Source of the DNA: Candidatus Fervidifonticultor quintus
GTDB lineage: Bacteria > Sysuimicrobiota > Sysuimicrobiia > Sysuimicrobiales > Humicultoraceae
Length of the DNA stretch: 52,107 nt
Assembly (NCBI GenBank): GCA_031459535.1
Contig: JAVKIJ010000011.1
Span: 1 to 52,107, forward strand
Direction: 5' to 3'
Shown here piece after piece: positions 23,901 through 26,900 of the stretch. Made by a program: the position numbers. Numbering within the stretch: the first letter of the stretch is position 1; the number at the start of each line of letters is the position of its first letter.

Positions 23901-26900
23901 GTCATTACCGACAGCGGCCACGTGGTGCTGTCGGCCGTCCAGCCGGAGACGCTCGCCCATCGCTACGACTCGAGGGGGGCCGCCGACGAAGCCACCGAGT
24001 AATGCTCCGCCCCGCGTGGTGGTCGCCATCGGCGGCCCGATCGGAGTCGGCAAGAGCACGGTGGCGCAGGGCCTGGCAGCTCGGCTGGGCATCCCGTGCG
24101 TGTCCGCGGGGGGCGTCTTTCGCGAGCTGGCCCGGCGGCGCGGCGTCTCCGTGGTCGAACTCAACCGGCTCGCCGAAGATGACCCCACCATCGACCGCGA
24201 TCTGGACCGGCTGCAGGGCGAACTGGCACGAGGCGGCCCCTGCGTGGTGGAGTCCCGGCTGTCGGGCTGGATGGTGGACGCCGATCTCAAGGTCTGGCTG
24301 GACGCGCCGCTAGAGATCCGTGCGGCGCGCGTCAGCGGCCGCGACCGGGAGAATCCCGACGAGGCCAGGCGCCAGTTGCAGGTGCGCGAGCGCAGTGAAT
24401 GGTCGCGCTACAGGGCGCTGTACGGCATCGAGTTCTCCGACCGGTCACCGTATCACCTGATCATCGACACGAGCCGCTGGGCCCCCGAGGTCATCGTCGA
24501 CGTCCTCGAGCGCTGTGTGCGGGGGCTTCGTCCTGCCTCGGAGGCCCGCTGATTTCCCTCGGCCATTGGGAGGCCCGCCCGCCCGTCGGTGATCTCTCCT
24601 TCCCGTTCGATGATCGTCGCGCTGGACTTACCCCTGCGGGCTGGCGACGTGGCGTTCACGTTCGCGCCCGGCGCCGCCGCCGCGGCGACGCGCGGGGCGG
24701 GCGTGATCGTGCCCTTCGGCCGGCGGCTCGTGCCCGGCGTCGTGCTCGGCGAGGGCGACGCCCGCCCGGGCCTGCGGCCTGTCCTGGCCATGGTGGAGCC
24801 ATCTTTGCCGATCCCGGCGGCCACCGTGGATCTGGCGGAGTGGGTAGCCGGCACGTATGTGTCGTCGGTGGGTGAAGCCCTGAGCGTGGCGACGCCCTGG
24901 GACGCGCTGTGGCGCGGCCTGAGGCTCGGGGCGCACAGCGCGGGGACGGGGGTGCTGTCCGGCCCGGCGGCCCGGATCGTGGAGGCACTCCGCCAGAGAC
25001 CGCGTTCGCTGCGGCACGCCGGCCCGCTGGTGATGGAATTCCCCGGGGTGCTGGACGAGCTGGCGGAGTCCGGTCTGCTCAAGGCCGTTCGGGCCAGTGC
25101 TCCGTCGCCGGCGCGGGGCGGGCGCGCCGGCGATGCCGCCCCGGAGGGTGAACGCCAGCAGCCGGACGGAGCGGCCTCAGTGCTGGACCGATCAACTCGC
25201 GCCGCCGGGCGGCTGGCGGACGCGGTGCGCGATGGGATGCGAGGCGGCCCGCGCGCCCTGCTCGTGGTCGGTTGGCCGCGGCTACCTGCCTACCTGGCCG
25301 CGCTCGCCGCGGGGCTTTCCGCCGGCTGCTCGTGCGTGGTACTGTTTCCGGCCACGGAAGCGGCGACAACCTTTGCGGCTTCGGCGTCGCGGGCCGGGTT
25401 CCATCCCGTGCTCCTCCACGGGGGCCTGCCGCCATCAACACGCGTGGCCGCGTGGCAATCCCTGGTCGGCGCGCGGGGCGCGCTGGTGGTCGGCACGCGG
25501 GCGGCGATCTTCGCGCCGGTACTCGATCCCGTCCTGGCCATCGTGGACGAAGAGGATCACAGTGGCCACAAAGAGGAGCGCTCGCCCCGTTTTCTCACCG
25601 CGGTTGTGGCGGAGCAGCGGACCCGCCAGGCCGGTGTGTTGGTCATCGGCGCTACGACCCCCACCGTGGCCGCGTATGGCCGCGTGCAGGCCGGGCAGTT
25701 CGCGCTGGTGCCGCTGCCTTCCCCCCGGTGCCGGATCGGCGTCGTGGATCTGCGGCGTCGGGCCGATCCTGATGCACCGGTGAGTCGGCCGGTGCTCGAC
25801 GCCGTCCGGCGCACGGTGCGCGCAGGCGGCCGGGCGTTGCTGCTCGCCGACCGCCGAGGCTATGCGGGTGGGTTGCACTGCGCGGAGTGTGGCGCTGTCG
25901 AGCGGTGTCGAGACTGCGGCCCGGCCATGGCCTACGACCGCGGCGGCCGCCGCCTGATCTGCCGCCTGTGCGGCCGCGTCGCCCCTGCACCGGCCGTGTG
26001 TTCTGTCTGCCGCGGGGCGCGGCTCCACGCCCTGGGTGCGGGCACCGAGCGGGTGGCAGCAGCCCTGCGCCGGGTCGTCCCGCGGGTGTGGCGGCTCGAC
26101 GCGGATGCCATTCCCCCGGGCGGGGGGCCCCAGGCCGTTCTCACGCCGGTCCGGGAAGGGGGCGGCGCGTTGGTGGCCACGACATTGGTGCTCCCGTACC
26201 TGGAGGGGCTGCGGCCAGACTTGGTGGCGATGGTGGCTGCGGACCGCTGGCTGCACCGTCCGGAGTTTCGCTCGGCCGAGCGCGCACTGGCCCTGCTGCG
26301 CACCCTGGGGCTGCTGACCGGTGCCCTGGTACTGGTGGAGACCGCAGATCCCCATCACCCGGTGGTCCGGGCCGCCCCGGGTTCGAACCTGAGGTCGTTC
26401 TACGCGGACGAGCTGCGGGTCAGGCGCGCGCTGGGCTATCCGCCCTACCGCGCGCTGGCCGTCGTCGAGGTGGCAGCGCGCTCCGTCCAGATCGCCGCTC
26501 GTCTCGCCGCTCGTCTCGCCGCCTTAGCGACAGGCGAGAGCGAGGTGCTGGGCCCCATCTGGCTGCGCGCGCGGGGCCCTCTTGTCAGGTGTCGGGTCGT
26601 GATCAAGGCGGCCGGCCGCGAGATGTTCGCCCCGATGCTCGCCCCCCTCATGATGGATCGGGGTATGCCATCCTCTGCGCGGATGACCGTGGACGTGGAT
26701 CCGATAGAGCTGTAGCGCTGCCGTTCAGGCCTTCAGGACGAGATAGACGATGACCCTGGCCGCTGCGCCCTGGGGGAGGGTGCCTGCAATCCGCAGCCAG
26801 CCTCCGAAGTGGCGCACCCGGCAGTAGGTGAGACCCGGGGCCGGGGCAACGGCTACCGCTGTCCCTTCATCGCACCAGGCCATGCCGTCGGGTGAGATCT

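What a model noticed while it worked through the whole genome (the two positions that open the first line are those of the whole stretch)
24016..24552. Guanylate kinase is missing phylum-wide and an archaeal-type 'cytidylate kinase' sits in the gmk slot
No Gmk was found in any Sysuimicrobiota genome searched, while all keep the bacterial Cmk. A second, archaeal-type NMP kinase (g00307, TIGR02173) is universal and occupies the yicC-remA-[gmk]-coaBC-priA position. It is the likely GMP kinase, and so a candidate family for the unidentified archaeal guanylate kinase.
Evidence so far: TIGR03263 gmk 0 of 31, ringing in 10 bacterial and none of 4 archaeal controls; TIGR00017 cmk 31 of 31; g00307 orthologs 46 of 46; yicC-remA directly upstream in 30 of 30 loci, coaC directly downstream in 17 of 30. 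Best Swiss-Prot hit Halobacterium Cmk 47%; the only non-phylum relatives among 23 loci are archaeal. The gmk gene order itself is recalled from Bacillota.
(Added by a program. Inside this text positions count along the whole contig: contig position 1 is position 1 of the stretch shown here. "Call 12" and the like, gene names such as g00115 and contig names such as C1 are that model's own, and its searches are not shown. The text may have been shortened before it was handed on; [...] marks where a part breaks off. The agent that wrote the report below was given it as the finding of a first reader that could run no searches.)

Follow-up and report, generated by a model that had tools for sequence, protein, structure and literature searches.

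The report
Likely missing archaeal guanylate kinase family
An enzyme long labelled 'archaeal cytidylate kinase' sits in the guanylate kinase gene's usual place in two bacterial groups that have mostly lost guanylate kinase, so it probably makes GDP and may be the guanylate kinase never identified in archaea.

Summary
Largely confirmed and extended. Window 24016-24552 encodes a TIGR02173/COG1102 'archaeal Cmk'. In 94 phylum genomes it passes its cut-off in 88 and bacterial Cmk in 85. Gmk passes in 2: one likely contaminant, one Fpg-like fusion. The gene follows yicC-remA, where annotated Bacillota records carry gmk.

Three lines are new. (1) Spirochaete-type homologues lie between yicC and rpoZ, again the gmk slot; a B. 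burgdorferi model has no Gmk gene and keeps two 'Cmk'. (2) Cmk's cytosine readers S36/R110/D132 align to A or G31, D60 and L82, with an invariant D64, a pocket that suits guanine. (3) The family is essential in two archaea, has no proven function listed for two Sulfolobus orthologues, and AK6/Fap7, the published candidate, is dispensable.

Best reading: a GMP kinase on a Cmk scaffold that displaced gmk in place. No activity was measured. Archaea lack another Cmk, so dual GMP/CMP activity stays open.

The parts
24016..24552 (+). TIGR02173/COG1102 nucleoside-monophosphate kinase ('archaeal Cmk'), 178 aa; proposed GMP kinase. P-loop at residues 7-15; arginines R36, R81, R124, R131 shared with Cmk; base-pocket D60, D64, L82, A31
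   Evidence: (161.8 bits, cut-off 102.1)
22837..23718 (+). yicC/yloC endoribonuclease; upstream marker of the gmk slot
   Evidence: TIGR00255 247.6 bits, cut-off 167.5, tested on 22846-23715; start codon read from the sequence
23736..24002 (+). remA (DUF370); directly precedes gmk in Bacillota and precedes the kinase here by 13 bases
   Evidence: NF046064 142.4 bits, cut-off 140
24589..26715 (+). priA-like primosomal protein; downstream marker (rpoZ and coaC are not between it and the kinase in this window)
   Evidence: TIGR00595 226.4 bits, just under the cut-off of 230.35
20978..22735 (-). rqcH/NFACT gene, divergent from yicC as in Bacillus (start approximate)
   Evidence: NF038240 and NF041120 matches below cut-off; same arrangement
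19584..20971 (+). rluD-type pseudouridine synthase and pyrR; part of the conserved upstream block
   Evidence: TIGR00005 293 bits; NF003549 219 bits; conserved in relatives

Best explanation
The protein is the cell's GMP kinase (ATP + GMP/dGMP to ADP + GDP/dGDP). It is built on the cytidylate-kinase fold, not the Gmk fold. An ancestor of the phylum acquired it, probably from an archaeon, in the yicC-remA-gmk-rpoZ-coaBC-priA operon; gmk was lost and rpoZ moved. The P-loop and LID arginines transfer the phosphate as in Cmk. The base pocket has lost Cmk's cytosine readers and presents two invariant carboxylates, D60 and D64, placed to accept hydrogen bonds from guanine N1-H and N2-H2. Bacterial Cmk, Adk, PyrH and Tmk cover the other NMPs. 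Shown: family, fold, slot, complementary distribution, residue swap. Inferred: substrate, role of D60/D64, donor and order of events.
For: Distribution: Gmk 2 of 94 (both explained), this family 88 of 94, bacterial Cmk 85 of 94 with T36, R110 and D132 intact in 27 of 27 sequences aligned, so a second CMP kinase is not needed. GuaA, PyrH and Ndk match in the genome; Adk- and Tmk-like ORFs were recognised by eye. Slot. Second lineage: of 24 spirochaete-type loci, yicC directly upstream in 23 and an omega-like gene downstream in 17; gmk-rpoZ is linked in 18,302 of 23,517 genomes (PMC9973325). EC 2.7.4.8 is scored 0 in all 12 archaeal columns and 0.44 and 0.2 in the two spirochaete columns (PMC4177761 supplement). 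The B. burgdorferi model gives GMP kinase to Adk as 'presumed nonspecific enzyme'; BB_0819 is a second CMP kinase and BB_0820 is rpoZ. Pocket: D60, D64 and L82 in 97 of 97 taxon-assigned rows; D60 and D64 each in 127 of 130 further representatives. Archaea: 121 of 121 genomes of one phylum carry the family, 0 of 121 Gmk. Essential in S. islandicus and M. maripaludis; Fap7/AK6 non-essential in S. islandicus (PMC6249222 supplements).
Against: No assay, ligand structure or docking. The fold's best matches are CMP kinases and the databases seen label the family cytidylate kinase or AAA ATPase. The same 121 archaeal genomes have no bacterial Cmk, so the family may be their CMP kinase or serve both. 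D60 or D64 could bind cytosine N4 in place of D132. The residue map rests on profile alignment across a roughly 40-residue deletion. rpoZ also left the slot, so the swap was not a clean one-for-one replacement. T. maritima UMP kinase accepted all natural riboNMPs in a 19-hour assay (PMC10248530). Archaeal essentiality could be a polar effect in a ribosomal-protein operon. I could not search whole spirochaete genomes, and BB_0819's sequence was not seen. Members also occur in a Parabacteroides plasmid cluster, in a phylum whose control genome has Gmk.
Confidence: 0.78

Rival explanations
1. A broad-specificity NMP kinase that handles both GMP and CMP. In archaea it does both jobs; the two bacterial groups keep it for GMP only. 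This overlaps with the best explanation and differs on selectivity.
For: 0 of 121 archaeal genomes have bacterial Cmk or Gmk and 121 of 121 have this family. Cmk fold with R131 (Cmk R188) kept.
Against: R110 and D132 equivalents are replaced, and R110A abolished activity in Yersinia Cmk (PMC3603445). Halophile second copies keep the same D60/D64/L82 signature, which does not separate the two readings.
Confidence: 0.35
2. It is a true CMP kinase, as annotated, redundant with bacterial Cmk. GMP is phosphorylated by promiscuous Adk or PyrH, and the gmk slot is coincidence or shared regulation.
For: Annotation, fold, the B. burgdorferi model's assignment to Adk (itself a presumption), the broad T. 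maritima UMP kinase.
Against: It needs two lineages each to lose gmk, keep an intact Cmk and place a redundant Cmk in the gmk slot. The cytosine readers are absent. The paper reports narrow scope for the other T. maritima NMP kinases, Cmk taking CMP, dCMP and UMP. The 'proven function' field is empty for SSO0692 and Saci_0570 while Adk has entries in both species.
Confidence: 0.12
3. Another, unrecognised enzyme (PPK2, a dNK-family kinase or an uncharacterised P-loop kinase) is the GMP kinase, and this protein has some other substrate.
For: The genome has two dNK-family genes and an AAA_33 kinase. My inventory relied on one motif scan and two Pfam models in an 89% complete genome.
Against: None is universal: PPK2 2 of 41, dNK 15 of 41, the AAA_33 kinase 24 of 41 with one query. 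The NMP-kinase arginines are conserved in this protein.
Confidence: 0.07
4. Gmk absence is an assembly or detection artefact.
For: These are incomplete genomes; one true Gmk was found in G068.
Against: No hit over cut-off in 54 good genomes, while controls ring in 10 of 10 bacteria. tblastn and phmmer with real Gmk queries find nothing significant in the own genome. The slot is contiguous and filled.
Confidence: 0.02

Closest known systems
Archaeal 'cytidylate kinase' TIGR02173 / COG1102 / arCOG01037 (for example SSO0692, Saci_0570, TK1514)
   Same: Same family above cut-off; up to about 50% identical to the archaeal members fetched; same D60/D64/L82 and arginine pattern.
   Different: Here it sits in the bacterial gmk slot next to an intact bacterial Cmk. 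The one archaeal locus read in full has secY-adk-rpl34e-cmk-rpl14e-cbf5 (genes recognised by eye); cbf5 is near in 49 of 53 archaeal loci.
Bacterial cytidylate kinase Cmk (TIGR00017; E. coli 1kdo, S. aureus 2h92)
   Same: Fold (VIA Z 17.4, rmsd 2.4 over 167 residues for 1kdo); R41, R131, R181, R188 and Y40/F35 equivalents.
   Different: Lacks the roughly 40-residue NMP-domain insert; S36, R110 and D132 become A/G, D and L; far below the family cut-off.
Guanylate kinase Gmk (TIGR03263, PF00625)
   Same: Proposed reaction and gene slot. Gmk also uses two carboxylates for guanine: mouse E72Q/D103N becomes an adenylate kinase (reference title seen, paper not read).
   Different: Not a member; only general P-loop kinase likeness (hhalign probability 70, E 4e-05 against a Bacillus Gmk).
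AK6/Fap7 broad-specificity kinase (COG1936)
   Same: P-loop NMP kinase proposed as the archaeal GMP kinase in PMC4177761.
   Different: Distant (NF003012, which I take from recall to be this family, 24.8 bits against cut-off 152); non-essential in S. islandicus.
Spirochaete second 'cytidylate kinase' (Treponema/Spirochaetaceae; probably B. burgdorferi BB_0819)
   Same: TIGR02173 above cut-off in 5 of 5 tested; yicC-kinase-rpoZ order; D60/D64/L82.
   Different: Separate clade with a GKSGCGN-type P-loop, no remA, rpoZ retained, murC upstream and miaA downstream.

Membership tests
TIGR02173/COG1102 | HMM score above the curated cut-off over the full length | tested here: met
   161.8 against 102.1 bits, profile positions 1-167 of 169
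TIGR02173/COG1102 | Conserved D60, D64, R81, L82, R124, R131, Y136 | tested here: met
TIGR02173/COG1102 | CMP kinase activity implied by the family name | not testable with these tools
   No assay found in 10 paper searches; 'proven function' empty for two Sulfolobus orthologues
Bacterial Cmk (TIGR00017) | HMM cut-off | tested here: not met
   38.4 against 135.55
Bacterial Cmk (TIGR00017) | Cmk fold | tested here: met
   VIA Z 19.2 (7l4a, rmsd 2.3, 171 aligned), 19.0 (2h92, 2.2, 165), 17.4 (1kdo, 2.4, 167)
Bacterial Cmk (TIGR00017) | Cytosine readers S/T36, R110, D132 | tested here: not met
   A31, D60, L82 by profile alignment; roles from PMC3603445
Gmk (TIGR03263/PF00625) | HMM match | tested here: not met
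   No match at E<=0.01; none in the genome
Gmk (TIGR03263/PF00625) | Gmk fold and GMP-binding domain | tested here: inconclusive
   The best structural matches are Cmk; the lists cannot exclude a family
Gmk functional role | Position after yicC(-remA) and before rpoZ/coaBC/priA | tested here: met
Gmk functional role | Present where Gmk is missing | tested here: met
   spirochaetes only through literature tables
Gmk functional role | ATP-dependent GMP phosphorylation | not testable with these tools
   Needs an assay

The most novel reading that the evidence does not exclude
COG1102/TIGR02173, annotated as cytidylate kinase across archaea, is the long-missing archaeal guanylate kinase: a second, independently evolved GMP kinase made from the Cmk scaffold by reversing the charge of the base pocket. 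It has displaced gmk in place in at least two bacterial lineages, Sysuimicrobiota and the Treponema/Borrelia-type spirochaetes.
Probability: 0.65. Interest if true: 0.9.

Novelty: new variant of a known kind. Interest (0 to 1): 0.83.

Why it matters
GMP to GDP is unavoidable for making GTP and dGTP, yet PMC4177761 (2014) states that in archaea only the reaction, not the enzyme, had been identified. A named candidate family with a structural rationale turns that gap into one enzyme assay. If right, it re-annotates a near-universal, essential archaeal gene and reopens the question of how archaea phosphorylate CMP. It would also fill the gap patched by assumption in the B. burgdorferi metabolic model, and point to a GMP kinase unlike the human one in Lyme and syphilis spirochaetes, a possible antibiotic target (inference). 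It is also a clear case of in-place non-orthologous displacement.

Tried and rejected
Literature: 10 searches of open-licence PMC and bioRxiv found no paper assigning GMP kinase activity to COG1102 and no assay of an archaeal member. Most subscription journals are not covered; a COG-update paper and Grochowski 2012 were not held, so prior art may exist. PMC7237435, PMC2764106 and PMC12628685 gave nothing decisive. bioRxiv supplements were closed.

One or two origins for the bacterial clades: the 213-row and 55-row trees did not make them sisters. A 32-row tree joined them at support 39. The AU test did not finish, and a first tree run timed out. Unresolved.

No whole spirochaete genome could be searched, so Gmk absence there rests on published tables.

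Sequence and fold searches listed no solved member of this family and no guanylate kinase among the rows shown.

Expression: one hot-spring metatranscriptome has contigs across the region, the kinase included, but contigs cannot show transcription. The promoter and terminator scan was uninformative. Composition shows no recent transfer: kinase GC 0.71 and GC3 0.87 against 0.67-0.74 and 0.81-0.84 in neighbours. The gene upstream of the relocated rpoZ in this genome did not look like a kinase (read by eye). Earlier scan findings were not available.

Full report
THE GENE. Window 24016-24552 (+) is a 178-residue ORF that starts at a GTG 13 bases after the remA stop. It scores 161.8 bits on TIGR02173 (cut-off 102.1) and 38.4 on bacterial Cmk TIGR00017 (cut-off 135.55); no guanylate kinase model matches. 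The order is rluD, pyrR, rqcH (reverse), yicC, remA, kinase, priA. The AlphaFold model (pLDDT 93.6, pTM 0.88) matches CMP kinases best: Z 19.2 for 7l4a, 19.0 for 2h92 and 17.4 for E. coli 1kdo.

DISTRIBUTION IN THE PHYLUM. Of 94 genomes, PF00625 passed its cut-off in 2, TIGR02173 in 88 and TIGR00017 in 85. Among the 54 good genomes there was no Gmk over cut-off, 53 matched TIGR02173 and 51 matched Cmk. Five genomes had no TIGR02173 match: four are 65-78% complete and one is in about 1,050 contigs; a sixth match is cut by a contig end. The G068 Gmk lies on a 2,096-base contig with an extra rluD, 53% identical to the native copy on the kinase contig, so contamination is likely. The G023 hit is an Fpg-like fusion below the Gmk cut-off. 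tblastn and phmmer with real Gmk queries found nothing significant in the own genome. G016 and G024 are flagged unpublished; they are counted in the tallies (G016 also supplies 1 of the 30 loci and 1 of the 27 Cmk sequences), and no claim depends on them.

THE SLOT. Four annotated Bacillota records, opened from 21 plasmid-collection RemA hits, all read remA-gmk-rpoZ. Three have yicC directly upstream, three have coaBC-priA downstream, and B. velezensis also has the divergent NFACT gene. E. coli has yicC four genes before gmk-rpoZ. In the phylum, yicC-remA precedes the kinase in 30 of the 30 best-scoring loci and coaC follows in 29. In 14 more loci chosen to cover the remaining families, yicC preceded in 14 and remA in 13; coaC followed in 9, priA in 4, and 1 had too little flank. 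rpoZ is present in 60 of 61 genomes; it was not found in the slot in the loci tested, and in this genome it lies on another contig. The kinase therefore stands where gmk-rpoZ stands in Bacillota.

A SECOND LINEAGE. One representative hit (P0252) led to a large subfamily, 3,240 proteins at E<=1e-20, whose named members among the best 120 are Treponema, Spirochaetaceae and Spirochaetota. In 24 metagenome loci, yicC lies directly upstream in 23; the other has 222 bases of flank. An omega-like gene follows in 17 of 24. That profile was built from 5 of them; 4 of 4 tested match NCBIfam's omega model NF001588, one above cut-off. Five of five kinases pass TIGR02173. Seven of the loci were put in a tree and group with the named spirochaete proteins at support 99. 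gmk-rpoZ linkage holds in 18,302 of 23,517 genomes (PMC9973325, passages), so yicC-kinase-rpoZ is the gmk slot with both markers in place. A published table scores EC 2.7.4.8 at 0.44 and 0.2 in the spirochaete columns, 0 in all 12 archaeal columns and near 1 in most other bacterial classes (PMC4177761, supplement rows). The B. burgdorferi model assigns GMP kinase to Adk, 'Added for presumed nonspecific enzyme', and lists BB_0128 and BB_0819 for CMP (PMC10734484, passages and supplement rows). BB_0820 is rpoZ (PMC4570706, one supplement row). That BB_0819 belongs to this family is inferred from position and recall; I did not see its sequence.

THE POCKET. In Yersinia and E. coli Cmk, S36, R110 and D132 contact cytosine, Y40 stacks on it, and R41 and R131 bind phosphate; R110A is inactive (PMC3603445, passages). 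The phylum's own bacterial Cmk keeps T36, Y40, R41, R110, R131, D132 and R188 in 27 of 27 sequences. Profile alignment (probability 99.8, consistent) maps S36 to A31, R110 to D60 and D132 to L82, while R41, R131, R181 and R188 map to R36, R81, R124 and R131. In 97 taxon-assigned rows (31 phylum, 52 archaeal, 14 spirochaete), D60, D64, R81, L82, R124 and R131 are invariant. In 130 unassigned representatives D60 and D64 each hold in 127, and position 82 is L or I in 124. Fused and short rows were left out of that alignment. Inference: an aspartate where Cmk has a donor arginine disfavours cytosine N3/O2 and suits guanine N1-H and N2-H2. D64 lies one helical turn away and could be the second reader, as in Gmk's two carboxylates (reference title only; atom-level roles recalled). 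No docking was possible, and an aspartate can also bind cytosine N4.

ARCHAEA. PMC4177761 says the archaeal guanylate kinase gene was unidentified and proposes AK6 (passages). In 121 genomes drawn from the phylum of a Halospeciosus genome, TIGR02173 was found in 121, Gmk in 0 and bacterial Cmk in 0. COG1102 is essential in S. islandicus and M. maripaludis, has no 'proven function' entry for SSO0692 or Saci_0570, and Fap7/AK6 is non-essential in S. islandicus (PMC6249222, supplement rows; the main-text search found nothing). From general knowledge, CTP can be made from UTP without a CMP kinase, whereas GDP cannot be made without a GMP kinase, which fits essentiality better. Polar effects in the ribosomal operon and the lack of any other archaeal Cmk argue for caution and leave a dual enzyme open.

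RIVALS. PPK2 (2 of 41), dNK (15 of 41) and an AAA_33 kinase (24 of 41, single query) are too patchy to be the phylum's GMP kinase. Adk and PyrH remain possible: T. maritima UMP kinase accepted all riboNMPs in a long incubation, while the other NMP kinases were narrow (PMC10248530, passages and section 7). The confidences of the best explanation and the dual-specificity rival overlap.

ORIGIN. The phylum's sequences form one clade (support 98, 95 and 89) among archaeal and unassigned rows. No donor is resolved, nor whether spirochaetes acquired the gene separately. Composition matches the neighbours, consistent with an old acquisition.

NOVELTY AND VERDICT. The family and in-place displacement are known kinds; the functional assignment was not found in 10 searches of open-licence literature, which miss most subscription journals. 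GMP kinase as the physiological role in this phylum: about 0.78. Extension to archaea: about 0.65. Interest 0.83, because it makes a long-open question testable with one assay.

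Noticed in passing
P0123, P0124, P0126, P0128 (cluster member named Ca. Aenigmarchaeota): Tandem two-domain proteins of about 375 aa. One domain has the canonical D60/D64 and R81; the other has His at the D60 position and Lys for R81. Possibly two NMP specificities in one chain, a natural test of the pocket model.
   Followed up: partly
L181:3995-4912 (Parabacteroides distasonis plasmid NZ_CP143950.1): A C-terminally extended homologue (305 aa) with D60/D64 kept, beside a radical SAM gene, a dehydrogenase and hpt; perhaps a purine-nucleotide tailoring cluster. P0260 and P0266 look similar.
   Followed up: partly
L002:895-2097 (G023:C148): Fpg-type H2TH and zinc finger fused to a Gmk-like domain (TIGR03263 90 bits), next to an ORF that looks like a glycosyltransferase, near a contig end; genome 8% contaminated.
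   Followed up: partly
L206-L214: Nine of 121 archaeal genomes carry a second TIGR02173 copy. Eight form a divergent type with a GCGATT P-loop, and no ribosomal-operon neighbour was found near them; all nine keep D60, D64 and L82.
   Followed up: partly
G000:C59:26697-26885: rpoZ is relocated; on the same strand it is followed by one ORF, a probable tRNA (by eye), and tilS- and ftsH-like genes. Several family-f4 genomes have 2-5 rpoZ-like matches.
   Followed up: no
L064:5527-6117 and relatives: The downstream coa gene is a stand-alone CoaC (about 196 aa), not fused CoaBC. The window's close relatives have lost it from this locus.
   Followed up: partly
L192 (G093:C24): In the single family-f7 genome remA is missing and yicC directly precedes the kinase.
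   Followed up: no
G000:C61:27262-27792: Ndk matches in two pieces 124 bases apart, possibly an in-frame insertion of about 40 codons.
   Followed up: no
window 24589-26715: PriA here is 708 aa and scores just under TIGR00595; the relative in L064 is 851 aa, so this copy is shortened and may lack helicase motifs.
   Followed up: no
window 17590-18186: DksA/TraR-like (YteA-type) zinc-finger regulator with a long basic N-terminal stretch, between a probable ileS and lspA.
   Followed up: no
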